Virus record (IMG/VR): IMGVR_UViG_2529293140_000005
Coordinates: 1 to 37,403 of that record
Strand: one strand, 5' to 3'
DNA from: a virus
Lineage: Duplodnaviria > Heunggongvirae > Uroviricota > Caudoviricetes
DNA: 37,403 bases
Numbering within the stretch: position 1 is the first letter of the stretch; every line of letters starts with the position of its first letter. Below the pieces are notes generated by a model that saw only the letters and a program-made list of their open reading frames with translations, had not been told where the DNA came from and made no database searches. Made by a program: the position numbers and the translations under genes. Below are positions 322-27,022 of the stretch, piece by piece.

Positions 322-531
<210 letters not shown>

Positions 532-538
532 GTAACAC

Positions 539-584
539 CGCTCTTTTCACAATGGACATTCGTCCTACGTCGCTGACAAAGCGA
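539..584 (+). promoter_or_regulatory. nutR-like site: boxA-like CGCTCTTTTCAC and boxB-like hairpin TCGCTGACAAAGCGA (570..584)
   Basis: Downstream of cro, as for lambda nutR. 5-bp stem with 5-nt loop. The N gene would lie outside the window. Confidence 0.4.
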
Positions 585-668
585 GCCCCAAGATATCTGA
601 CCAACTAAGGCCATATGCGTTTCCACGCATACCTTTCAACTAACTATTCACTATTGGAAAATTAACAA

Positions 669-965
669 ATGACACAAGCAAGTTACAGCAAGCCAACACA
701 GCGAGAAATTGATCGCGCAGAAACAGATTTACTCATCAACCTGTCAACGCTTACCCAGCGCGGTCTGGCAAAGATGATTGGCTGTCATGAATCGAAGATA
801 AGCAGAACGGACTGGCGGTTTATTGCTTCGGTCTTGTGTGCTTTCGGAATGGCATCAGACATCAGTCCGATTAGCAGGGCTTTTAAGTATGCGCTTGATG
901 AAATCACAAAGAAAAAATCCCCGGCCGCCACCGAGGATTTTAAGCAAATTGATATGCAATTCTGA
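669..965 (+). CDS. cII: CII-like transcriptional activator
   Basis: 98 aa, position after cro. C-terminus [17 protein letters not shown] resembles lambda CII KKRPAATERSEQIQMEF. HTH-like segment [15 protein letters not shown]. Confidence 0.6.
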
Positions 966-4858: not shown

Positions 4859-5327
4859 ATTATCATATGATGATGTTTTAGGTGTACTTAGATGGAAAGT
4901 GTCTCCTTCTAATAATGTTAAGGTTGGCAGTGTTGCTGGTTACATTAGGAGTGATGGTTATAGGATGTTAACTATCGATGGTGTAATTACTTATGCTCAC
5001 CACGTTATATGGATGATAAATAATGGTGAGATTCCATTAGGGTATAAAATTGATCATATAAATGGAGTAAGGTCAGATAATAGGCTATCTAATCTTCGAT
5101 TGGTTACACACCAACAGAATGCACAGAACCAAAAGAGAAAAATAACCAATTCGTCAGGAGTGACTGGAGTATATTTCAATAAAGAGAGATGTAAGTGGAT
5201 TGCGAATATATGCGTAGATGGGCGCACCAAATATCTTGGAATATTTGCTAGCATCATTGACGCTATTGCAGAAAGGAAGAGGGCAGAAAAAGAACTGGGT
5301 TTTCATGAAAACCATGGCAGACCATAA
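4821..5327 (+). CDS. HNH homing endonuclease with an AP2-like DNA-binding domain
   Basis: HNH motif region YKIDHINGVRSDNRLSNLRLVTHQQNAQN. C-terminal GVTGVYFNKERCKWIANICVDGRTKYLGIFASIIDAIAERKRAE resembles an AP2 domain. AT-rich relative to its flanks. Confidence 0.75.
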   Translation: MRNISNIDELRNKLSYDDVLGVLRWKVSPSNNVKVGSVAGYIRSDGYRMLTIDGVITYAHHVIWMINNGEIPLGYKIDHINGVRSDNRLSNLRLVTHQQNAQNQKRKITNSSGVTGVYFNKERCKWIANICVDGRTKYLGIFASIIDAIAERKRAEKELGFHENHGRP

Positions 5328-9732: not shown

Positions 9733-10473
9733 ATGGCAAAACCGGACTGGGGAGCACTGCAACACCAGTTCCTCGCCGAGCATGCCAAAACAGGAATATC
9801 CCCGAAAGACTGGTGCGCAGCGCAGGGACTGAATTACTCATCTGCGAAACGCTATATCAAAGTAACGACTTACGGTGCGAATTCGCAAAAAAAAAGTGCG
9901 AACAAATCTGCGAATTCGCAGAAGGAGAAAGGCGGGGCCAATAAAAACGGGAAGGTGAAAAAAAACCAGCCCGACACAGGCGCCCGCTCAAAATCTCCAG
10001 AAACGAAACCGATACGCGGATCGCGCACCGCACCGCCGACGAACGCCTTCCAGCCTGGCAACCAGAACGCATTAAAGCATGGTGGCTATGGCCGCCGGAT
10101 GCTGCTCTCTGACGCCATCACCGAAGATGCCCAGATGCTCACGCTCGACGATGAGCTTTTCTGGCTGCGAGCGGCGAGCCTGACAGCGGCAGAGAATATC
10201 GGGCGCTGGCAGACAGAGCTGGAGACAGCCGCCAGCGAGCAGGCCAAAGATCTACACGACCTCATCTCTCAGGCGCAGAAAGCCATGCATCGCAACACTG
10301 CGCGCATTGAGTCGCTGGAGTACACCAAGGCGGCGATTATCAAGCAGCGCGTTGATGCCGCTTACCGCGAAGCCGCGACCGAAAAGGTTGAGCTCGAAAT
10401 TGATGTACTGAAAGACGGCGACAAGGATAACGCGATCGTCGTGCATAACTCGCTGCCAATACCGGGAAGATAA
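9733..10473 (+). CDS. Terminase small subunit
   Basis: Directly upstream of the large subunit; N-terminal HTH-like segment; basic low-complexity linker; internal palindromes. Confidence 0.65.
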   Translation: MAKPDWGALQHQFLAEHAKTGISPKDWCAAQGLNYSSAKRYIKVTTYGANSQKKSANKSANSQKEKGGANKNGKVKKNQPDTGARSKSPETKPIRGSRTAPPTNAFQPGNQNALKHGGYGRRMLLSDAITEDAQMLTLDDELFWLRAASLTAAENIGRWQTELETAASEQAKDLHDLISQAQKAMHRNTARIESLEYTKAAIIKQRVDAAYREAATEKVELEIDVLKDGDKDNAIVVHNSLPIPGR

Positions 10474-10476
10474 ATC

Positions 10477-11808
10477 ATGGCCGACATTTACCTACCCACG
10501 CTACACAACGGGCAGTTAACGGTCTGGTCTGATTCCTGGGATCACCAGTTGAATGCGGTTCGCTGTGGTCGACGCTGGGGGAAAACCTTCATGCTGTCGA
10601 GCGCCGCGGTGACCTACGCAACGTCGCAGTTTCGGCGCCCGGGCATGGACATCGAGCTGGGCGGCCGGGTCGGTATCTTCACTGCCGAGTATCGCCAGTA
10701 CCAGGAGATCTACGACAAGCTGGAAGAAATCCTGTTGCCGCTGAAAAAGAGTTTCAGCCGGCAGGAAAAGCGCCTGCTGCTGAAGAACGGCGGGAAGATT
10801 GACTTCTGGGTCACCAACGACAACAAACTGGCCGGTCGTGGTCGTGAGTACGAAATTATCCTGATCGATGAGGCGGCTTTTACCAAGTCGCCTGAAATGC
10901 TGAAGGAAATCTGGCCGAAGTCGATTAAGCCGACGCTACTGACGACAAAAGGCCGGGCCTACGTATTCTCAACGCCTGACGGTGTGGATGAAGAAAACTT
11001 CTTCTATGCCATCTGCCATAACAAAGACCTCGGCTTCCATGAGCATCACGCGCCGACGTCATCAAACCCCTTCGTTCCTCCCGAGGAGCTGGAGAAAGAG
11101 CGACAGAACAACGATCCTCGCGTTTTCCGGCAGGAGTTCCTGGCCGAGTTCGTCGACTGGTCCGCTGCGTCGCTGTTCGACGTCCGCAAATGGTTCGAGG
11201 GTGAAAACCAGGATCAGCCTGTCGATTACCCTGAGATGTGCCAGGCCGTTTTCGCTGTCATGGATACCGCCGTTAAGGGCGGTACTGATCACGACGGCAC
11301 GGCGGTGGTTTACTACGCCGTAGACACCCGGCCCGGAATTCAGCGCCTGACCATTCTTGACTGGGATGTGGTGCAGATCGACGGCGCGCTGCTGGAAGAG
11401 TGGATTCCGTCCGTTTTCACCCGGCTGAATGAGCTATCCGGCCAGTGCGTCGCTGTAAATGGCAGCCTCGGCGTTTTCATTGAAGACGCCAGTATGGGCA
11501 GCATCCTTCTGCAGAAAGGCGAGAGCCTGGGATGGCCGGTCAACAAAATTGAATCCGCCCTGACCAGCAAAGGGAAGGACGAGCGCGCCATTATGGCCTC
11601 TGGGTATCACTACCGCGGGCTGGCGAAAATATCCCGATACGCCTACGAGAAGACGGCAGTCTTCAAGGGCGAAACAGCAAACCATCTGCATAAGCAGGTA
11701 TCACGATTCCACCTTGCCGATAAGAACGCGCACAAGCGCGCCGACGATTTGCTGGATGATTACACCTACGGGCTGATCATCGCGTTCGGTAGCGGCGACG
11801 CACTCTAG
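10477..11808 (+). CDS. Terminase large subunit
   Basis: 443 aa; Walker A-like CGRRWGKTF; acidic motifs ILIDEAA and FAVMDTA consistent with ATPase and nuclease domains. Confidence 0.8.
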   Translation: MADIYLPTLHNGQLTVWSDSWDHQLNAVRCGRRWGKTFMLSSAAVTYATSQFRRPGMDIELGGRVGIFTAEYRQYQEIYDKLEEILLPLKKSFSRQEKRLLLKNGGKIDFWVTNDNKLAGRGREYEIILIDEAAFTKSPEMLKEIWPKSIKPTLLTTKGRAYVFSTPDGVDEENFFYAICHNKDLGFHEHHAPTSSNPFVPPEELEKERQNNDPRVFRQEFLAEFVDWSAASLFDVRKWFEGENQDQPVDYPEMCQAVFAVMDTAVKGGTDHDGTAVVYYAVDTRPGIQRLTILDWDVVQIDGALLEEWIPSVFTRLNELSGQCVAVNGSLGVFIEDASMGSILLQKGESLGWPVNKIESALTSKGKDERAIMASGYHYRGLAKISRYAYEKTAVFKGETANHLHKQVSRFHLADKNAHKRADDLLDDYTYGLIIAFGSGDAL

Positions 11809-19937: not shown

Positions 19938-21332
19938 ATGGCAATTGTTAATATTAACGTGTCGGTGACGAATCCGCCGAAGCCCTCGCAGTTGTTAAAG
20001 TCCGGGGCGATGATTTCTATGGGCGGCACGACGCTGAATGCCGGTGAATATCAGCTGCTGACCAGTGAAACCGACCTGGCCGACATCCTTGCACCGGCGA
20101 AAACCATCTCGACGCTCGCCTGGGCTACTGGCGTGGTAACGGTCACGTTGGCTGCCGCTCATGGATGGACTAACGGATCACAGGTCCCGGTGATCATCTC
20201 CGGAGCGACTCCAGCGGGGTACAATGGCGCCTATACCGCTACGGTGACAGGTGCCAACACCTTCACCTATCCGCTGACGGCCAACCCCGGCAGCGCAACG
20301 GCAATGGGGACGGTAAAAACGGTAGTTCAGAACGAAATTTCCCAGATGAATACCTCGTTCTGGGCCCAGGGGAAAACGCGGGCAGTTTATGTGCTGGAAC
20401 TTGGCGATGTGTCCATGGAGGCAGCTGTCGCAGCGCTGACAACCTTCATCGCTGAAGACGTCGCCCTGGGCAACACCTACCAGAAGTTTTTCTCCTATCT
20501 GGTGCCGCGCGAATGGGATTCGGTCGATGAATTTAAAACCCTGACCGGGCTTTATACCTCGCCGGGCAGCCTGGTTTACTTCTTTGTCACCACAACGATC
20601 GCGACCTATCAGGATTGGGTCGCGACGAAAAACAAAACTGTCTTTGCCGGCGTCGAGGCTCCGGATATTCCGGCGAGCGAGTTTTCCATGGCCGGCCCGT
20701 TCCAGTCGTCCCTGGCAAACGACCCGGGGTCGAGCAACATGGTGCCGCCGATGTCGTACCGCTTTATGTACGGCCTGACTGAGTACCCGCTGGAAGGCAA
20801 CAGCGCACTGCTGAAATCGCTTCAGGACAGCAACATCAACTACATCGGCACCGGCGCCGAAGGTGGACTCAGCAATAAAGTGCTGTTCACCGGCCGCATG
20901 CTCGATGGTAACCCGTTCAACTACTGGTATTCGGTGGCGTGGACGGCGATCAACCTTGAGCTCGACCTGGCGAATGAAATCATCAACGGCTCCAACACGA
21001 CCGTTAACCCGCTGTACTACGAGCAGAAGGGCATTGACCGCCTGCAGCGTCGTGCTCTGAAAACCTTGCGTAATGGCATCAGCTACGGGCTGATCCTCGG
21101 TCGCGTCATCGACACGCAACTGACGCAGGAAGATTTCAACACCGAGTATGACAAAGGCACTTACGCCGGCAACGCCGTGATCAACGCCGTGCCGTTCAGT
21201 AACTACAACAGCCTGAACCCCTCCGATTATCAGGAAGGCAAATATAACGGGCTGAGCGCCGTCATGACGCCGCGCCGCGGCTTCGAATCCATCACGTTTA
21301 ACGTGAACGTAACGAACTTTGTAGGGGCGTAA
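19938..21332 (+). CDS. Tail sheath protein with an N-terminal Ig-like insertion
   Basis: 464 aa followed by a ~145-aa tube-sized gene, chaperone and tape measure. Confidence 0.55.
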   Translation: MAIVNINVSVTNPPKPSQLLKSGAMISMGGTTLNAGEYQLLTSETDLADILAPAKTISTLAWATGVVTVTLAAAHGWTNGSQVPVIISGATPAGYNGAYTATVTGANTFTYPLTANPGSATAMGTVKTVVQNEISQMNTSFWAQGKTRAVYVLELGDVSMEAAVAALTTFIAEDVALGNTYQKFFSYLVPREWDSVDEFKTLTGLYTSPGSLVYFFVTTTIATYQDWVATKNKTVFAGVEAPDIPASEFSMAGPFQSSLANDPGSSNMVPPMSYRFMYGLTEYPLEGNSALLKSLQDSNINYIGTGAEGGLSNKVLFTGRMLDGNPFNYWYSVAWTAINLELDLANEIINGSNTTVNPLYYEQKGIDRLQRRALKTLRNGISYGLILGRVIDTQLTQEDFNTEYDKGTYAGNAVINAVPFSNYNSLNPSDYQEGKYNGLSAVMTPRRGFESITFNVNVTNFVGA

Positions 21333-21335
21333 AAA

Positions 21336-21773
21336 ATGGCGAACCCATTAGTACCGCAGGGCTTTCTTAACCGCGTACGCGGGGCCCTTTCCGTCACGGA
21401 TACACCGGCGCTGAACGTTTCGGCGTCGTACCTGGCAAAGGACGGCATTAGCCTGCGTCCTGACGGCCCGGCAACCGACATCATCCCTACGATGACCGGC
21501 ACCGTCGGCAGCCAGGCACCGTATCAGCAGGTAACGCTGACCGTGCATCTTCTGAAAACTCAGGGGTTGGGTGAAAGCTACCGACAGCGCTTTTTAACCG
21601 ACACGTCGCTGGGTGAAATCGTGGTGACGCCGGATGCAACGACGTTCGGTAATATCACGCTGCTCAACTGCTACCTGGTCAACTTCAACGAGCTGGCTTT
21701 CAGCGGGATGGACCCGGCTTTTGTGGTAACCATCAGCGGCTACATGGTCACTAACGACAACATGTGGGTGTAA
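21336..21773 (+). CDS. Tail tube protein
   Basis: 145 aa; position after the sheath. Confidence 0.5.
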   Translation: MANPLVPQGFLNRVRGALSVTDTPALNVSASYLAKDGISLRPDGPATDIIPTMTGTVGSQAPYQQVTLTVHLLKTQGLGESYRQRFLTDTSLGEIVVTPDATTFGNITLLNCYLVNFNELAFSGMDPAFVVTISGYMVTNDNMWV

Positions 21774-21776
21774 TGC

Positions 21777-22349
21777 ATGAAAATTGACAAGAAACTGAAT
21801 CTGGTCACCAGCGTTACCCGCGAAGACGGCTCGATCGTATACCTGCACGTGACGCCTTTTCCCTATGAGGTGGTGGAAGAACACTGCATCCTGCTGGGAA
21901 ATCTGTTCACCAAATTCATCTCGCAGGTTGGTGGTCTTGGTGCCGCCAGAATCGCAGCGATGATGCTGCGTCAAAGCCTGAAAGCGGAAATCGATAACGG
22001 CCGGACAGGCCCGAACATCGTTGATGAAATTCAGCGACTGACGGTCGTTATCCATAACGTCGGCGGCCAGTGGAAAACCACGCCTCTTGAGGTGGCATTC
22101 AAGCAGGGGATTATCGACCCTGATGAGTATCGCGAGGTCGAAGGCGAAGTGGTTTTTTTTATGGTTTCCTCTGCTATTCAGAAGGCAAACCTGATCGCGC
22201 CGACCGTGGGAACGGTGATCAAAATGTACGATGGGCAACTAACCTCATCGAGCGGTACGGCGTTCCGCGATTCGTTGCAGACGTCGAAGCCGGATACCGA
22301 TATCCCGACCCAGAATGCCCAGCCGGAAACGTCATTTATACCCTCTTAG
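21777..22349 (+). CDS. Tail assembly chaperone (frame-0 product)
   Basis: Position between tube and tape measure; contains an internal slippery heptamer. Confidence 0.55.
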   Translation: MKIDKKLNLVTSVTREDGSIVYLHVTPFPYEVVEEHCILLGNLFTKFISQVGGLGAARIAAMMLRQSLKAEIDNGRTGPNIVDEIQRLTVVIHNVGGQWKTTPLEVAFKQGIIDPDEYREVEGEVVFFMVSSAIQKANLIAPTVGTVIKMYDGQLTSSSGTAFRDSLQTSKPDTDIPTQNAQPETSFIPS

Positions 22350-22483
22350 ACTGGGCGTCTAATGAGGGTTTCTGGCAGGTGATAAGGGAGATCACCGGCG
22401 AGGAGTATGCAAGCCCGGCGCAGTACCGGCAGCGCTACCTACTCGCCGCGCTCAAAGAAAGAGGTTTCTTCAATGGTAGCTAA
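22154..22483 (+). CDS. -1 frameshift extension of the tail assembly chaperone (slippery site T_TTT_TTT 22154..22160; -1 frame open 22127..22483)
   Basis: A U-UUU-UUU heptamer sits in the zero frame (codons GTT TTT TTT). The -1 frame is open from the heptamer to a TAA at 22481..22483, just inside the tape-measure start. Confidence 0.55.
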   Translation, partial: FFYGFLCYSEGKPDRADRGNGDQNVRWATNLIERYGVPRFVADVEAGYRYPDPECPAGNVIYTLLDWASNEGFWQVIREITGEEYASPAQYRQRYLLAALKERGFFNGS

Positions 22484-24290
22484 GTCGATCGTCGACATTG
22501 ACGTAAATGACGACAAGTTTGTCGCGTTTATGGAAAGGTTTCGCGAGTACCAGAGCGCGCTGGATGATTTACCGGAAGCATGGCGGGTAGCTGCCGTTGG
22601 TATTGGAGAAAGCAGCAAGCAGACCGAAAAGGCCAAAGGTGAGACGAAGGAGTTAGGCGCGGAGTTTAATGCCGTGGCCGAGGCCATTCTGACTATCAAC
22701 AGTGGTATCGATCGGCTCAATGCCAACCTGGAAGACTCGAAGAAAAAGCAGGACGAATTCAACAAAAGCACTCGCTCTGCGAAGGGCTTCCTTAGCGATG
22801 CGACGAAAGACGCTAAATCGCTGGCAGGGCACATCAAGGAAGCGACGGCCAGCCTTCTGTCCTGGGGTGGTATTGTCGGGATATTTACCGGCGTCCTGGG
22901 CGTTGGCGGCCTGTTTGGCATCAACCGGCTGGCGGCCACCACCGGCGCCCAGCGGTTTACTTCTCTCGGGCTCGGGACGAGCATCGGCGCGCTGGATTCC
23001 ACCGCCATAAACTACCAGAAAGCGCTGGGTAATCCGGCGGGGACGCTGGGCGCTATCCGCGATTCCCAGATGGACCTGTCGAAGCGCTGGACGTTTCAGG
23101 CTATGGGGATTAACAATCCCGACCAGGACCCGGCCAAACTGCTCCCGCAGATGATCCGTAATGCGCGCGATATTTTCGTGCAGAACGGCAGCACGCTGCA
23201 GGGCGCACAGGCGCACGGCCTGACAAACTTCTTTACGCTGGACGACCTGAACCGCTTCAAAAACATGAGCGATGAGGAGATCACCGCCATGGAGAAGCGC
23301 GCGCAGCAGGATGCGCGCATGTTGCAAATTACCGACCAGCAGGCGCGCCAGTGGCAGGATTTTAACGTCCAGCTCGACTACAGCAGCCAGAGCATCAGGA
23401 ATACGTTTGTGCGCGGCCTGGGTCCTCTCACACCTCAACTGAGAAAACTGTCTGATGCGCTGTCAGGCGCGATCGATACCGTCCTGAAATCCCCCGAACT
23501 CGGCAAGTGGATTGATGCGCTTGCCGGCGGCATTGAGCGATTCGGTAATTACCTCGCTTCTCCTGAATTTTCCACAGATGTAAGCAACTTTATGGACAAA
23601 GTAGAGAAAATGGGAAATCTAATTGGCAAGGTTATTGATTGGGTAACAGGGAAAGCGAGTATCTCTACTGCGGATATATCATCCGGGTCAACGATGTTGA
23701 GCCCAAGCACCATCATCGATCCGAAAACGGGAAAATCCTATACTCCTGGAAGCAATGATGACCCGCATGTATGGGGCTGGCTCAAGGGTGTTAGGCGCTT
23801 CTTTGAAGATGGAACCGTTAAAGCTGTTGATCCCACACCTGCAAATACTTCCGACAGAAACAGGACTATTGCAGATCGATTTAATAATCCGGGAAATCTG
23901 CGGTGGGCTGAAGGATATAGCAGCGAGAATACGAGAAGCGGTAAATTTGCCGTCTTCCCAACGCTGGATGAAGGCGTACTGGCGGCGACAAAGCAACTTC
24001 AAATGTATGGCGCTAAAGGAATAAATACGGTAGGAGATATTGCAAGAAAATGGGCTCCTCCTAAGGAAAATAATACCGCTGAGTATATTCGGCATGTGGT
24101 TAAAACTACTGGATTTAATGAGAATCAGAAACTGAATCTCAATGATCCTCAGGTTATCGCGAAACTCATTTCTGCTATATCTCAAAAAGAAGGGGCTGGT
24201 AGCAGAGTTTCTGAGAGCACAGTCATTCAGATCTATAACAATACCGGTGGGAATGCAGTGGTAACTTCAGCGCAATTGGGGGCGAGGTAA
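22473..24290 (+). CDS. Tail tape measure protein
   Basis: 606 aa from the ATG at 22473 (RBS AAGAAAGAGG). Helical low-complexity N-terminus, central hydrophobic Gly-rich segment, AT-rich C-terminal domain. Confidence 0.6.
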   Translation: MVAKSIVDIDVNDDKFVAFMERFREYQSALDDLPEAWRVAAVGIGESSKQTEKAKGETKELGAEFNAVAEAILTINSGIDRLNANLEDSKKKQDEFNKSTRSAKGFLSDATKDAKSLAGHIKEATASLLSWGGIVGIFTGVLGVGGLFGINRLAATTGAQRFTSLGLGTSIGALDSTAINYQKALGNPAGTLGAIRDSQMDLSKRWTFQAMGINNPDQDPAKLLPQMIRNARDIFVQNGSTLQGAQAHGLTNFFTLDDLNRFKNMSDEEITAMEKRAQQDARMLQITDQQARQWQDFNVQLDYSSQSIRNTFVRGLGPLTPQLRKLSDALSGAIDTVLKSPELGKWIDALAGGIERFGNYLASPEFSTDVSNFMDKVEKMGNLIGKVIDWVTGKASISTADISSGSTMLSPSTIIDPKTGKSYTPGSNDDPHVWGWLKGVRRFFEDGTVKAVDPTPANTSDRNRTIADRFNNPGNLRWAEGYSSENTRSGKFAVFPTLDEGVLAATKQLQMYGAKGINTVGDIARKWAPPKENNTAEYIRHVVKTTGFNENQKLNLNDPQVIAKLISAISQKEGAGSRVSESTVIQIYNNTGGNAVVTSAQLGAR

Positions 24291-25000
24291 TGGGATTCAC
24301 ACGTGAAATGTATAAGCTGGGTTTTGAAATATCCCCAGTAATACTTTGCGGAGGGATAGCGCAGGCCATTCCTGGAGGAATGCTCCCGATCGTCGCTTTG
24401 ACGCAGAGCGCGAGCTTTGTCACGGGACTGCTTGGAGGAGCCATAAACCTAACCGATCTGGATAAATATTTCTGCCACTGGCGCCCGGTTCAGGGCGCCA
24501 CAATGGTTGATTATGAAATTGCCAGATACCCTTTCGCCAACCAGGTTGTAGCTGCGAACGCTTTGCTTGCTCAGCCTTTGCGCGTTTCGTTGGTGATGGA
24601 GGCTCCGGTCAATGAAAACACCGGGGCGATGACAAAGCTCGTCACTATGAGTGCTTTGCAGTCTGTCCTTCAGGCGCATTCTAACTTAGGGGGCACGTTT
24701 ATCGTCGCCACCCCATCCGTTATCTATAGCAACTGCATTTTGCGTGTCGTTAGGGACATCACTTCAGGTAACGATCCATTACCACAGCGTTCATGGATAT
24801 GGGATTTCGAGCAGCCACTGATAACCGATAATGGTGCAGAGCAGTCTGTGAACAATTTTTTAAACAAGATTGGCGCCGGGGATATGGTAACCGACCCATC
24901 CTGGACTAATACCGCCAATGCTCTTGGCAACACGCCTCTCGGGAGCTCTGTATCGGAAGCAATAACCGGCCTATTGGGTAAGTTGGGGGTAGGGCCATGA
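24290..25000 (+). CDS. Tail/baseplate protein
   Basis: Translationally coupled ORF in the baseplate block. Confidence 0.4.
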   Translation: MGFTREMYKLGFEISPVILCGGIAQAIPGGMLPIVALTQSASFVTGLLGGAINLTDLDKYFCHWRPVQGATMVDYEIARYPFANQVVAANALLAQPLRVSLVMEAPVNENTGAMTKLVTMSALQSVLQAHSNLGGTFIVATPSVIYSNCILRVVRDITSGNDPLPQRSWIWDFEQPLITDNGAEQSVNNFLNKIGAGDMVTDPSWTNTANALGNTPLGSSVSEAITGLLGKLGVGP

Positions 25001-25275
25001 CAACCCAGAATTATCCGTTTACCGGCAATGATCGTCAAAGCATGACTTTTACACCGATCCTTGATGGCACCGTCTATAACTGCCAGGTCAAATGGAACAT
25101 TGCCGGGCTGAGGTGGTATGTCCTCATAACCGATGGCTCTGGGAATACCATTCTAAATACCCCGCTCGTTGGCTCCGTGCTTAACGGTGGAATAAATATT
25201 ATCTCCGGAGTGTTTAATTCGTCCTCCATGTACTGGCGAGAGCAGAATGGACTGATTGAGGTAAACAGCTCATGA
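24997..25275 (+). CDS. Small tail/baseplate protein
   Basis: 92 aa, overlapping starts and stops. Confidence 0.35.
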   Translation: MTTQNYPFTGNDRQSMTFTPILDGTVYNCQVKWNIAGLRWYVLITDGSGNTILNTPLVGSVLNGGINIISGVFNSSSMYWREQNGLIEVNSS

Positions 25276-26309
25276 GATATTATGATATTGAGATAACCAT
25301 TCCTGCTGAAGGCGCTTCTCCGGAAAGAACGATAAAATACAGTAGCCATAAGAACGGAGTTTACAACCCAGGCGCCCTGATGATTGAGTTTGATATCCTA
25401 AGGTACGGTGAATCGACTCCCCAGGGCGAAACTCACCTGACCATCTGGGGTATTGGCCCAAAAGAAATGCAGCAGGCTCGCCAGAATTTTTTTGGCAAAA
25501 AAATTAAAATATCCCTTGGGATGAAAGACGGGCTGCCATTGGCTGGAAAGGTTACCGCGCCAAAACTGGTATTGGATGGCGTGATAAATCAGGTCTTTGG
25601 TAACTGGCAGGGTATTGAGCTACGACTTGACTTCATAATCGTGGTTGGCCCTGTCCAGAACGTGCCAAATAACAAACCCGTACCCCTTCCTTTAACCTTT
25701 GACTGGAAGGAGGGGCAGAAGCTTTCTGTAGCCCTCACGCAGTGCTTTATGAACATCAGAGGGTATACGTTCAATATCAACATAAGTGACCGGCTAATTC
25801 TTAATCATTACCGGGGGCTGTTTTGTGATGATATTGTCACACTGGCCAAGGACCTTAATGCTTTTTCACGTTCCAGAATTCGCGATAGTGGATACTCAGG
25901 TGTAGAGATCGCAATAGTGAATGGTAATGAGATCCGGGTATGGGATAACGATTATGATAACCACCCGGATAAGACTTCTGTTTCCAGCGCCGTAGCCAGA
26001 AGCAACAGCCCAACCCAAATAGATTTCAAGGATTTGATAGGGCAGCCGACATGGGTGGCATTTAACACAATCAGCATGGCGTGCGTAATGCGCGGTGATA
26101 TTCAGGTTGGCGATCACATCCTGATGCCTAAAAAAAGCACTCCGTTGATACAGGCCTCTTCGTACTCTCAGTATCGAGAAGACTCTGCCTTTACTGGCGA
26201 CTTTATTGTGAACTCCGTTCGCCTGTTAGGGAATAGCAGGCAACCAACGGCAGAGGCATGGGTAACAATTATTGAGGCTTCCCCTTTCATTAAGGCAGGT
26301 AGTGCATGA
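25272..26309 (+). CDS. Baseplate hub-type protein
   Basis: 345 aa in the baseplate block; assignment by position. Confidence 0.35.
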   Translation: MRYYDIEITIPAEGASPERTIKYSSHKNGVYNPGALMIEFDILRYGESTPQGETHLTIWGIGPKEMQQARQNFFGKKIKISLGMKDGLPLAGKVTAPKLVLDGVINQVFGNWQGIELRLDFIIVVGPVQNVPNNKPVPLPLTFDWKEGQKLSVALTQCFMNIRGYTFNINISDRLILNHYRGLFCDDIVTLAKDLNAFSRSRIRDSGYSGVEIAIVNGNEIRVWDNDYDNHPDKTSVSSAVARSNSPTQIDFKDLIGQPTWVAFNTISMACVMRGDIQVGDHILMPKKSTPLIQASSYSQYREDSAFTGDFIVNSVRLLGNSRQPTAEAWVTIIEASPFIKAGSA

Positions 26310-27022
26310 GCATCGACAACAAGCTTAATTTTGCCTCAAGCATGAACAGGTTTACTGAAAGAAAGATTGAAAATGCGCTTCAAAAATCAGGGAAGGTTCT
26401 TCCGGCGAGCGTGGTCAAGCAAACAGGGAATATGATCACCGTCTCCTTTGAGCTAAGGGATATCCCATATGTTTTGCCGCAAGTGACTATCCCCTTATTT
26501 GGCCCTCAATATATTCGTTACCCTATGCAGCCGGGAGATAAGGGGATTGTTATCCCCGCAGATACTTACATTGGCGGCGTTAGCGGTCAGGGTGGCGGCA
26601 TTGCAGATATGACACCGCCAGCAAACTTAAGCGCCCTCGTTTTTTTGCCGATCAGTAATACCGAGTGGCAGGGTGTCGACGGACAGGTGGTGACGGTATA
26701 CGGTCCGGAGGGTGTAACGCTGCGTGACAGCGGCAGCAACACCACATTTCTCCTGAAGCCTGACAGCATCGCTATTTCCACACCTGACAGCTTCACCGTC
26801 ACCGTTGGCGGGACAGTTTTCTCACTGACGGGTAGCAAATGGAGCCTTTCAGGACAGGCTGGTCACCTGCAGGATTCAGTGGCCAGTACCAGCCCGGCAA
26901 TCATGCACGCCGGATGGCAGTCGCTTCTGGCCTGGCTTAACAGCCATGAGCATTCAAACGGCAACGATGGAAATGATACCGGGGGGCCGACTTCAACGTA
27001 TAACGGGAGTATCACCGAGTGA
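26306..27022 (+). CDS. Baseplate spike/assembly protein (gpV-like)
   Basis: 238 aa; position two genes upstream of the J-like protein. Confidence 0.4.
   Translation: MSIDNKLNFASSMNRFTERKIENALQKSGKVLPASVVKQTGNMITVSFELRDIPYVLPQVTIPLFGPQYIRYPMQPGDKGIVIPADTYIGGVSGQGGGIADMTPPANLSALVFLPISNTEWQGVDGQVVTVYGPEGVTLRDSGSNTTFLLKPDSIAISTPDSFTVTVGGTVFSLTGSKWSLSGQAGHLQDSVASTSPAIMHAGWQSLLAWLNSHEHSNGNDGNDTGGPTSTYNGSITE

What the first reader, a model, noticed from the sequence alone, without database searches (positions are those of the whole stretch)
22127..22483. Programmed -1 ribosomal frameshift in the tail assembly chaperone at a U_UUU_UUU site
A zero-frame T_TTT_TTT heptamer (22154..22160) lies inside the chaperone gene. 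The -1 frame is open from just upstream of it to a stop that overlaps the tape-measure start, and it encodes a plausible ~108-aa extension (...LIERYGVPRFVADVEAGYRYPDPECPAGNVIYTLLDWASNEGFWQVIREITGEEY...). This is the conserved G/GT-type mechanism. The shift site sits unusually far (~190 nt) before the end of the zero-frame ORF, so the two products differ over a long C-terminal region.
Basis: seen in the sequence. Interest (0 to 1): 0.4.

Follow-up and report, generated by a model that had tools for sequence, protein, structure and literature searches.

The report
Conserved frameshift in tail chaperone gene
A run of T's inside a prophage tail-assembly gene most likely lets a minority of ribosomes slip back one base and make a second, longer protein; this is the well-known lambda G/GT mechanism, seen here in a large phage family where it has never been annotated.

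Summary
Gene 21777..22349 (190 aa) lies between the tail-tube gene and the tape-measure gene. It contains an in-phase T_TTT_TTT at 22154..22160. The -1 frame is closed upstream (9 stops in 125 codons). It opens at 22127 and stays open to TAA 22481..22483, which overlaps the tape-measure ATG at 22473.

Comparative evidence is strong. Of 150 distinct homologous genes (27-100% protein identity), 149 keep the heptamer in phase. The codon supplying its first T varies (GTT, ATT, TGT, ACT, GCT, AGT) but always ends in T. All 149 have a -1 ORF after the heptamer (94-125 codons where the contig allows), and in the annotated relatives checked it ends at the tape-measure start. Codon-position diversity shows the dominant constraint passing from the zero frame to the -1 frame about 27 codons after the heptamer.

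The best reading is a G/GT-type -1 ribosomal frameshift giving a 235-aa fusion. The family matches no known chaperone model, and no record or paper I checked annotates the shift. The site lies 189 nt before the G stop, against 19-21 nt in lambda and P2, so G and GT have alternative C-termini. No conserved stimulatory RNA was found. Transcriptional slippage is not excluded. This is a new member of a known kind, of moderate interest.

The parts
19938..21332 (+). Tail sheath gene (464 aa); sets the gene-order context
   Evidence: phrog_205 'tail sheath', E 3e-51. The related Yersinia phages are myoviruses by electron microscopy (PMC9224151).
21336..21773 (+). Probable tail tube gene (145 aa)
   Evidence: Assigned by its position directly after the sheath gene and by its size. 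phrog_6566 has no assigned function and there is no Pfam, NCBIfam or PDB match. This is an inference.
21777..22349 (+). Zero-frame gene 'G' (190 aa), the proposed tail assembly chaperone
   Evidence: The ORF is. It matches phrog_11810 over its full length, E 4e-87. There are 683 homologues, all named 'hypothetical', and 777 clusters at 50% identity.
22154..22160 (+). Slippery heptamer T_TTT_TTT (P site TTT 22155..22157, A site TTT 22158..22160); the T run is 22153..22160
   Evidence: Read. It is in phase in 149 of 150 distinct homologous genes. The codon carrying its first T is GTT, ATT, TGT, ACT, GCT or AGT, always ending in T. The next base is always A.
22127..22483 (+). Open window of the -1 frame (118 codons plus stop); translated after the slip from 22160
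   Evidence: No -1 ORF of 40 aa or more with an ATG, GTG or TTG start is listed here.
22160..22483 (+). 'T' extension: 107 codons plus TAA. The fusion GT = join(21777..22160, 22160..22483) = 235 aa
   Evidence: It matches phrog_14324, E 4e-6. tblastn shows conservation at 73-75% (Yersinia phages) and 40% (PdC23). Only 5 database proteins, mostly partial, match it among 5.8 billion.
22161..22241 (+). First 27 codons of the overlap: the zero frame dominates (G-specific segment MVSSAIQKANLIAPTVGTVIKMYDGQL) and the -1 frame reads as a poorly conserved G/D/E/R-rich linker
   Evidence: Site diversity by zero-frame position 1/2/3 is 0.11/0.09/0.29.
22242..22349 (+). Rest of the overlap: the -1 frame dominates (conserved LIERYGVPRFVADVEAG core) and the zero frame is a weakly constrained S/T/P/Q-rich tail
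   Evidence: Diversity is highest at -1-frame position 3 (0.23). The zero-frame invariant residue S166, and largely L167, follow from -1-frame codons (my reading of A1 and A2). Tail length varies from 41 to 86 codons in relatives.
22134..22144 (+). Candidate Shine-Dalgarno-like 5' stimulator (GAGG 22134..22137 and AAGG 22141..22144); not established
   Evidence: The duplex energy with the anti-SD sequence is -7.1 kcal/mol (9th percentile of the gene's own background). Distant lineages carry GGAGGTG 13-15 nt upstream. A synonymous-codon permutation test is not significant (Fisher p = 0.077).
22163..22191 (+). Local hairpin starting 2 nt after the heptamer; probably not a stimulator
   Evidence: z-scores are -0.8 and -1.06 against shuffles. 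RNAalifold over 10 lineages gives a consensus of only -1.8 kcal/mol.
22473..24290 (+). Tape-measure gene (605 aa) with a C-terminal transglycosylase-like part. Its ATG overlaps the stop of the -1 ORF, and AGAGG lies at 22460..22464
   Evidence: It matches phrog_7694, and phrog_2276 'tail length tape measure protein', E 2e-28. RothC and PdC23 annotate it as tape measure.

Best explanation
Gene 21777..22349 and the start-less -1 ORF that follows it form a G/GT-type pair of tail assembly chaperones in a temperate myovirus prophage, related to Klebsiella phages RothC/RothD and Chronis; RothD represents the proposed family Felixviridae.

Most ribosomes read the zero frame and make G (190 aa). A minority pause with tRNA-Phe on UUU (22155..22157, P site) and UUU (22158..22160, A site). 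Both tRNAs slip back one base onto identical UUU codons. Translation then continues with UAU at 22160 through 107 more codons to UAA at 22481..22483, beside the tape-measure start. This gives GT (235 aa): G residues 1-128, a loosely conserved linker of about 25 residues, and a conserved domain of about 80 residues that is probably helical.

Because the site lies 189 nt before the G stop, GT lacks the last 62 residues of G. The two products therefore have alternative C-termini, and about 190 nt are read in two frames.

Shown here: the sequence anatomy, the conservation of the in-phase heptamer, the coding signature of both frames, and the absence of an independent start. Inferred: that slippage is ribosomal, that it is low-level, and that, by analogy with lambda, the shared G part binds the tape measure while the T part recruits the tube protein.
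For: (1) Anatomy.
(2) Gene order is sheath, tube, G, -1 ORF, tape measure. The -1 stop overlaps the tape-measure ATG, as lambda T overlaps H.
(3) The heptamer is in phase in 149 of 150 distinct homologous genes across 180 loci, including high-GC hosts. FF is always TTT TTT. The preceding codon is GTT 137, ATT 4, TGT 3, ACT 2, GCT 2, AGT 1, so six amino acids are used and the third base is always T.
(4) In 40 diverse representatives the -1 frame has 239 stops in 5379 codons upstream of the heptamer and none in the 96-125 codons after it.
(5) The -1 product is conserved and its third codon positions are the most variable from about codon 28 after the heptamer onward.
(6) The window's -1 ORF has no listed start-codon ORF of 40 aa or more. 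It is essentially absent from a database of 5.8 billion proteins: 5 hits, mostly partial, against 683 for G.
(7) Annotated genomes leave a gap of about 120 nt between G and the tape-measure gene in an otherwise tightly packed operon.
(8) P2 uses the near-identical site T_TTT_TTG for E/E+E'.
Against: There are no experimental data. No conserved downstream hairpin or pseudoknot was found and there is no Rfam match. The upstream SD-like sequence is no more than the conserved amino acids would produce. U_UUU_UUU is a comparatively weak shifter in E. coli (review PMC5009743), although a low level is what G/GT systems use.

The chaperone identity is positional only. No Pfam, NCBIfam or PDB similarity was found, hhalign against P2 E and E' is not significant, and the AlphaFold models are poor (pLDDT 38.6 and 53.8).

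One distant member (L176) has ATA TAT TTT ACT in place of the heptamer yet keeps the -1 ORF. RNA-polymerase slippage on the T8 run would give exactly the same protein.
Confidence: 0.78

Rival explanations
1. Transcriptional slippage. RNA polymerase occasionally adds one U (or drops two) while copying the T8 run 22153..22160. Ordinary translation of those mRNAs then gives the same G-T fusion.
For: The window has 8 consecutive T's. Productive polymerase slippage on homopolymer runs is known in bacteria (9 A's or T's; PMC5009743). The predicted protein is identical, so no sequence analysis can fully exclude it. A database protein, P0252, has the fusion written in the DNA with a T6 run, which shows that the run length does vary, at least in assemblies.
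Against: The eighth T is simply the second base of a Val codon. In the lineages where that residue is Thr, Ala, Ser or Cys, the run is exactly 7 and still fills the in-phase X_XXY_YYZ positions. No lineage has lengthened the run to 9 or more, the length cited for slippage.
Confidence: 0.12
2. The shift is real but occurs further downstream in the overlap (22161..22349), near the point about 27 codons after the T run where constraint passes from the zero frame to the -1 frame.
For: For the first 27 codons after the heptamer the zero frame carries the stronger constraint and the -1 reading looks like low-complexity linker.
Against: No other in-phase X_XXY_YYZ heptamer lies downstream of the T run in the first 93 loci, and only 2 of the next 80 carry one (L144, L148). 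The window's AAAATG there is not conserved (GGCATG in the Yersinia phages). In many lineages the -1 frame has a stop only 2 codons before the T run and none after it, which a downstream site would not require.
Confidence: 0.04
3. There is no recoding. The -1 ORF is either an independently initiated small gene or a non-expressed by-product of constraints on the G gene.
For: In the Rac-SA53 group an ATG lies one codon after the T run in the -1 frame (YMRLVDK...). A PHROG family (phrog_14324) exists for such ORFs.
Against: The window and most lineages have no start codon in the first two-thirds of the -1 ORF. About 45 codons of the -1 ORF lie beyond the G stop, where only that frame shows a coding pattern (position-3 diversity 0.34 against 0.11 and 0.07). 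Amino-acid constraints on G cannot explain the synonymous conservation of GTT TTT TTT.
Confidence: 0.04

Closest known systems
Phage lambda G / G-T tail assembly chaperones (-1 frameshift at G_GGA_AAG)
   Same: The gene pair sits directly upstream of the tape-measure gene. The second ORF has no start of its own, is in the -1 frame, and ends overlapping the tape-measure ATG (lambda T 10115..10549 against H 10542). Both have an in-phase slippery heptamer. The expected outcome is a major short product and a minor fusion (PMC5009743).
   Different: Lambda is a siphovirus, so its pair follows the major tail gene V rather than a tube gene. Lambda's overlap is 19 nt, so GT contains nearly all of G. 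Here the site is 189 nt before the G stop and GT lacks G's last 62 residues. The heptamer differs (U7 against G_GGA_AAG). No sequence similarity was detected.
Phage P2 E / E+E' (-1 frameshift at T_TTT_TTG), Pfam Phage_TAC_7 and Phage_P2_GpE
   Same: Both are contractile-tail phages with the order sheath, tube, chaperone pair, tape measure. The slippery sequences are nearly identical U-rich heptamers decoded by tRNA-Phe, giving ...FF... at the junction.
   Different: The P2 site is 21 nt from the E stop. E is 91 aa and E' about 59 aa, against 190 and 107 here. The Pfam models that recognise P2 E, P2 E' and Mu gp41 do not recognise this family. hhalign is not significant (E about 0.15), although its best local match pairs FVADVE with LMADVA.
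Phage Mu gp41 (Pfam Gp41_Mu / Phage_TAC_7)
   Same: It occupies the same position, between the tube gene M and the tape measure gp42, in a temperate myovirus. A gap of about 145 nt before the tape-measure gene is covered by an alternative-frame ORF.
   Different: In Mu the ORF that reaches the tape-measure start is in the +1 frame, not the -1 frame. No sequence similarity to this family was found.
E. coli dnaX -1 frameshift (A_AAA_AAG with an upstream SD-like sequence and a downstream hairpin)
   Same: It is a bacterial -1 tandem slippage on a homopolymeric heptamer. An SD-like purine tract lies a comparable distance upstream here and in many relatives.
   Different: dnaX has a demonstrated downstream hairpin and SD stimulator and shifts at high efficiency (my own knowledge). 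Here no downstream structure is conserved and the SD-like tract is not separable from the protein constraint.

Membership tests
G/GT-type tail assembly chaperone frameshift (lambda paradigm; Xu, Hendrix and Duda 2004, as summarised in PMC5009743) | The gene pair lies between the major tail or tube gene and the tape-measure gene | tested here: met
   Sheath 19938..21332 (phrog_205), tube-sized gene 21336..21773, G 21777..22349, -1 ORF, tape measure 22473..24290 (phrog_2276). The order is the same in all annotated relatives.
G/GT-type tail assembly chaperone frameshift (lambda paradigm; Xu, Hendrix and Duda 2004, as summarised in PMC5009743) | The second ORF overlaps the 3' part of the first in another frame, lacks its own initiation site, and ends near the tape-measure start | tested here: met
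   The -1 frame is open 22127..22483. No start-codon ORF of 40 aa or more is listed. The stop overlaps the ATG at 22473. The arrangement is the same in the annotated relatives whose tape-measure start is known; a -1 ORF of comparable length follows the heptamer in the other loci.
G/GT-type tail assembly chaperone frameshift (lambda paradigm; Xu, Hendrix and Duda 2004, as summarised in PMC5009743) | A slippery sequence in the correct phase lies inside the overlap and is conserved among relatives | tested here: met
   T_TTT_TTT at 22154..22160 is in phase in 149 of 150 distinct genes. The third base of the preceding codon is always T across six different codons.
G/GT-type tail assembly chaperone frameshift (lambda paradigm; Xu, Hendrix and Duda 2004, as summarised in PMC5009743) | Both reading frames show protein-coding conservation | tested here: met
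   Codon-position diversity, alignments A1 and A2, and per-column conservation over 40 representatives.
G/GT-type tail assembly chaperone frameshift (lambda paradigm; Xu, Hendrix and Duda 2004, as summarised in PMC5009743) | Two products, G and the fusion GT, are made in a fixed ratio, with GT the minor one | not testable with these tools
   This needs a western blot, mass spectrometry or a reporter assay.
G/GT-type tail assembly chaperone frameshift (lambda paradigm; Xu, Hendrix and Duda 2004, as summarised in PMC5009743) | Both products are needed for tail assembly and are absent from virions; the G part binds the tape measure and the T part binds the tube protein | not testable with these tools
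   This needs genetics and biochemistry. The structure models were too poor for any inference.
Known chaperone sequence families (Pfam Phage_TAC_7, Phage_P2_GpE, Gp41_Mu and other Phage_TAC models; NCBIfam) | A significant match to the family profile | tested here: not met
   The window's G and T have no Pfam hit better than E about 0.03, all to unrelated families, and 8 relatives of each have none either. NCBIfam gives nothing. The positive controls P2 E, P2 E' and Mu gp41 are recognised. hhalign against P2 gives E about 0.15.
Canonical bacterial -1 programmed ribosomal frameshift signal | An X_XXY_YYZ heptamer in the zero frame | tested here: met
   U_UUU_UUU.
Canonical bacterial -1 programmed ribosomal frameshift signal | A stimulatory structure 5-9 nt downstream | tested here: not met
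   The window hairpin 22163..22191 starts 2 nt after the site and has z of -0.8 to -1.06. The RNAalifold consensus is -1.8 kcal/mol. Downstream minimum free energy equals the gene background in 36 lineages (mean z +0.23). There is no Rfam hit.
Canonical bacterial -1 programmed ribosomal frameshift signal | An upstream Shine-Dalgarno-like stimulator roughly 10-14 nt 5' of the site | tested here: inconclusive
   SD-like tracts sit 12-16 nt upstream in most lineages, but the synonymous-codon permutation test is not significant (Fisher p = 0.077). Several close relatives have GAA in place of GAG.
Programmed transcriptional slippage | A homopolymer run long enough for productive RNA-polymerase realignment (about 9 or more A/T in bacteria, per PMC5009743) | tested here: not met
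   The run is 8 here and exactly 7 in eight distinct homologues; it is never 9 or more. Low-level slippage on 7-8 T cannot be excluded.

The most novel reading that the evidence does not exclude
The early slip site is functional rather than accidental. It makes G and GT mutually exclusive isoforms. G carries a conserved C-terminal segment (residues 129-155, under purifying selection in the zero frame) that GT must lack. The frameshift therefore swaps one C-terminal module for another instead of merely extending G. Maintaining this requires about 190 nt of true dual coding, in which the structured part of each frame overlies a weakly conserved, low-complexity (presumably disordered) part of the other. 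The arrangement is conserved across the sampled relatives of a family of 777 clusters at 50% identity.
Probability: 0.35. Interest if true: 0.45.

Novelty: new member of a known kind. Interest (0 to 1): 0.3.

Why it matters
Three practical consequences follow.

1. Annotation. This tail module is labelled 'hypothetical' throughout RefSeq and GenBank, including prophages in 44 of 5426 complete E. coli genomes. The 107-aa T domain is effectively missing from protein databases: 5 hits, mostly partial, among 5.8 billion proteins. The G family spans 777 clusters at 50% identity. A join(21777..22160, 22160..22483) feature would recover the T domain in this record.

2. Phage biology. The relatives include RothD, representative of the recently proposed gut-associated family Felixviridae. 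The paper describing that family does not mention a frameshift (PMC12629751).

3. A test case for recoding. The first T of the heptamer is kept across six different codons. This is a clean natural example of selection on RNA sequence rather than on protein. The 41-86-codon overlaps make a good test case for frameshift predictors, which favour slip sites close to the stop codon (PMC10885494).

None of this changes the understanding of the mechanism.

Tried and rejected
- **Structure of G.** AlphaFold2 on a 23-sequence alignment gave pLDDT 38.6. Foldseek against BFVD returned only an uncharacterised sequence homologue.
- **Structure of the T domain.** AlphaFold2 on 4 sequences gave pLDDT 53.8 and five helices. 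Foldseek against BFVD found nothing with E below 1.
- **Sequence homology to known chaperones.** Pfam, NCBIfam and PDB profile searches were all negative. hhalign against P2 E and E' was not significant.
- **Downstream stimulatory RNA.** I tried single-sequence folds, RNAalifold on 10 lineages, minimum free energy against the gene background in 36 lineages and Rfam. No conserved element emerged.
- **Upstream SD-like stimulator.** It looked promising, but a synonymous-codon permutation test shows it is what the conserved D-W-x-E-V-E motif would give anyway.
- **Alternative slip site near the frame-constraint switch.** Rejected: no conserved slippery sequence lies there.
- **Promoters and terminators.** None were found inside 21300..22700.
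- **Literature.** The papers on Chronis/Roth (Felixviridae) and on the Yersinia phages do not mention a frameshift or a tail chaperone.
Full report
**What is in the sequence**

The window reads ...GAA GTG GTT TTT TTT ATG GTT... in the frame of the 190-codon ORF 21777..22349. The T run is 22153..22160. The in-phase X_XXY_YYZ heptamer T_TTT_TTT is 22154..22160.

The -1 frame has two stops at 22121..22126. It is then open from 22127 to TAA 22481..22483. That stop overlaps the ATG at 22473 of the 605-aa tape-measure gene, which has AGAGG eight bases upstream.

After tandem -1 slippage the next codon is TAT at 22160. It is followed by 106 more sense codons. The fusion would therefore be join(21777..22160, 22160..22483), or 235 aa. 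The zero-frame stop is 189 nt after the heptamer.

A T7 run as such is not unusual in this window: 15 matches on both strands against 8.7 expected. The case therefore rests on phase, position and conservation.

**Context**

All genes in this stretch are on the + strand. The 464-aa product of 19938..21332 matches the PHROG tail-sheath family (E 3e-51). The 605-aa product of 22473..24290 matches tape-measure PHROGs and carries a transglycosylase-like C-terminus. The 145-aa gene between sheath and G is tube-sized but matches nothing that has a name.

The region is 95-96% identical to Klebsiella phages vB_Kpn_Chronis, RothC and RothD. Positions 21777..22600 are 100% identical to prophages in clinical E. 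coli genomes.

RothD is the representative of the recently proposed temperate, gut-associated family Felixviridae (PMC12629751). The related Yersinia phages are myoviruses by electron microscopy (PMC9224151).

No record I examined annotates a frameshift, a joined CDS or a chaperone here. NCBI's pipeline calls sheath, tube, G and tape measure all 'hypothetical protein' and leaves 123 nt unannotated between G and the tape-measure gene.

**Comparative test of the slip site**

I collected 180 loci, counting the window itself. They came from annotated phages, IMG/VR (two scans, one seeded with a distant homologue), GTDB genomes, complete E. coli genomes and metagenome contigs. They contain 150 distinct G-gene sequences, ranging from 100% down to about 27% protein identity and from about 43% to 71% G+C.

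- 149 of the 150 have T_TTT_TTT in phase at the homologous position.
- The two Phe codons are always TTT, never TTC, even in high-GC genomes.
- The codon supplying the first T encodes six different amino acids, yet always ends in T: GTT 137, ATT 4, TGT 3, ACT 2, GCT 2, AGT 1.
- Where that codon's second base is not T, the run is exactly seven. The conserved unit is therefore the in-phase heptamer. The eighth T in this window is simply the middle base of a Val codon.
- The base after the heptamer is always A. This makes the first -1 codon always TAY (Tyr).

One caveat applies. One of the two peptide patterns used to find the IMG/VR loci contained 'FF'. This biases the sample toward the dipeptide but not toward its codons. 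The genome scan used an N-terminal pattern only, and the six metagenome contigs were reached from a profile search over the whole protein.

The single exception is L176. It has ATA TAT TTT ACT but still has the -1 ORF and the F-Y junction. Perhaps it uses single-tRNA slippage on U_UUU.

**Comparative test of the -1 ORF**

In 40 diverse representatives the -1 frame has 239 stops in 5379 codons upstream of the heptamer, often one only two codons before it. It has none for the next 96-125 codons. In the annotated relatives the ORF ends at the tape-measure start.

The translation is conserved: 73-75% identity in Yersinia phages, 40% in Pantoea phage PdC23, and clear motifs beyond that (...YG[IV]xRF[LIV]ADV[ED]...EGF...SA.[EQ][FY]RQR...).

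In the window this frame has no ATG, GTG or TTG start that would give an ORF of 40 aa or more. Gene callers almost never report it: 5 hits, mostly partial, in 5.8 billion proteins, against 683 for G.

**Dual coding**

I measured per-site diversity in 70 distinct enterobacterial sequences that share the same ORF lengths after the heptamer, and so were compared without gaps.

| Region | Most variable position | Values | Dominant frame |
|---|---|---|---|
| Upstream of the heptamer | zero-frame position 3 | 0.50 vs 0.19, 0.13 | zero |
| First 27 codons after it | zero-frame position 3 | 0.29 vs 0.11, 0.09 | zero |
| Codons 28-62 after it | -1-frame position 3 | 0.23 | -1 |
| Beyond the G stop | -1-frame position 3 | 0.34 | -1 |

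Column-wise conservation over 40 lineages agrees. G has a conserved post-site segment (FFMVSSAIQK..., then YDGQLTSS..FRDSL) and a variable S/T/P/Q-rich tail. GT has a conserved junction, a poorly conserved G/D/E/R-rich linker of about 25 residues, and then the conserved domain.

One zero-frame 'invariant' in the tail is forced by a -1-frame codon: TTC for Phe forces TCN, which is Ser. A second, L167, is largely forced in the same way. This is my reading of alignments A1 and A2.

The zero-frame stop lies 41-86 codons after the heptamer in the relatives. Across 136 cluster representatives the median tail is 59 residues. The long overlap is thus a family trait. In lambda the overlap is 19 nt. In P2 the annotated site is 21 nt from the E stop.

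**Mechanism**

On U_UUU_UUU both tRNA-Phe molecules re-pair with identical UUU codons after a -1 shift, so slippage carries no pairing penalty. This is the same logic as P2's T_TTT_TTG. The heptamer is reported to be less shift-prone in E. coli than A_AAA_AAG (PMC5009743). That fits a system in which the fusion should be the minor product, as in lambda, where the ratio is about 30:1 (same review).

I found no conserved stimulator.
- The window's hairpin 22163..22191 starts only 2 nt after the site and is no better than shuffles.
- RNAalifold finds essentially nothing over 10 lineages.
- Downstream folding energy equals the gene background.
- Rfam is silent.
- SD-like tracts (GAGG here, GGAGGTG in many relatives) lie 12-16 nt upstream. 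A permutation of synonymous codons shows the conserved D-W-x-E-V-E residues would produce them anyway (p = 0.077).

**Rivals**

RNA-polymerase slippage on the T run would give the same protein. Mass spectrometry therefore cannot separate the two mechanisms. Retention of exactly seven in-phase T's in eight distinct homologues, and the absence of any run of nine or more, argue against slippage as the selected mechanism. They do not exclude a contribution.

A shift site further downstream is unlikely. No other in-phase X_XXY_YYZ heptamer is conserved downstream of the T run. The -1 frame also opens at the T run rather than later.

Independent initiation of the -1 ORF is possible only in the Rac-SA53 group, which has an ATG one codon after the run. 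It is not a family feature.

**Relation to known families**

Functionally and architecturally this meets every testable criterion of the G/GT paradigm. By sequence it belongs to none of the described chaperone families. The Pfam models that recognise P2 E, P2 E' and Mu gp41 do not hit it. Neither do NCBIfam or PDB profiles. hhalign against P2 is not significant, although its best local matches are suggestive: PRIAxxML against PRMTAPML, and FVADVE against LMADVA.

The structure predictions were too poor to use. 'Tail assembly chaperone' is therefore an inference from position and architecture.

**Verdict**

This is a real, strongly conserved, unannotated G/GT-type recoding site, and a new member of a well-known kind. 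Its distinctive features are the very early slip site, the resulting alternative C-termini, and about 190 nt of true dual coding. Interest is moderate to low for the mechanism and higher for annotation.

Noticed in passing
window 25487..25503: A second in-phase T_TTT_TTT (AAT TTT TTT) lies in the 345-aa gene 25272..26309. It is followed by GGC and then A7, so the sequence TTTTTTTGGCAAAAAAA is a perfect 7-bp inverted repeat with a 3-nt loop. A -1 shift here would end after 6 codons (FFWQKN*). It is probably incidental.
   Followed up: partly
window 22407 vs 22473: The tape-measure start is annotated inconsistently among close relatives. Chronis uses the upstream in-frame ATG (equivalent to 22407), which lies inside the -1 ORF. 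RothC, the Yersinia phages, PdC23 and E. coli RefSeq use the ATG equivalent to 22473, which has an AGAGG ribosome-binding site and overlaps the -1 stop. RothC also annotates a 34-aa 'gene' that is just the tail end of the -1 ORF.
   Followed up: partly
L176 (ENA ERZ27229601 k141_215437), 479..793: A distant family member has ATA TAT TTT ACT in place of the heptamer, so only four T's. It still has a 104-codon -1 ORF that opens just upstream and ends at the start of the next called gene. Several other cluster representatives show 'YF[TI]' at this position. How they reach the -1 frame is open.
   Followed up: partly
protein P0252: This database protein of 232 aa is a G-T fusion written directly in the DNA (...EVVF-YGFLCHSE...), as if the T run were two bases shorter. 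A further frame change occurs near its end. It is most likely a homopolymer error in an assembly, but it could be a natural run-length variant.
   Followed up: no
L094 (phage Mu NC_000929) 4950..5117: In Mu, the ORF that bridges gp41 to the tape-measure start is in the +1 frame, not the -1 frame. No in-phase X_XXY_YYZ heptamer occurs in gp41.
   Followed up: no
window 19938..27022 and L175 (E. coli NZ_CP157327): RefSeq labels every gene shown in L175 (sheath, tube, chaperone, tape measure and their immediate neighbours) 'hypothetical protein'. Sheath, tube and chaperone have no Pfam or NCBIfam match (the tape measure has only negligible ones), and sheath and tube have no PDB sequence match. 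The top three E. coli hits each contain two matching places, which suggests two related prophages per genome.
   Followed up: partly
L092 (MAG labelled Thaumarchaeota, JAGWHB010000021.1): A homologous locus with the same heptamer and -1 ORF sits on a 4.4-kb contig binned as an archaeon. Its G protein is 59% identical to that of a Shewanella phage, so the contig is probably a mis-binned bacterial phage fragment.
   Followed up: no
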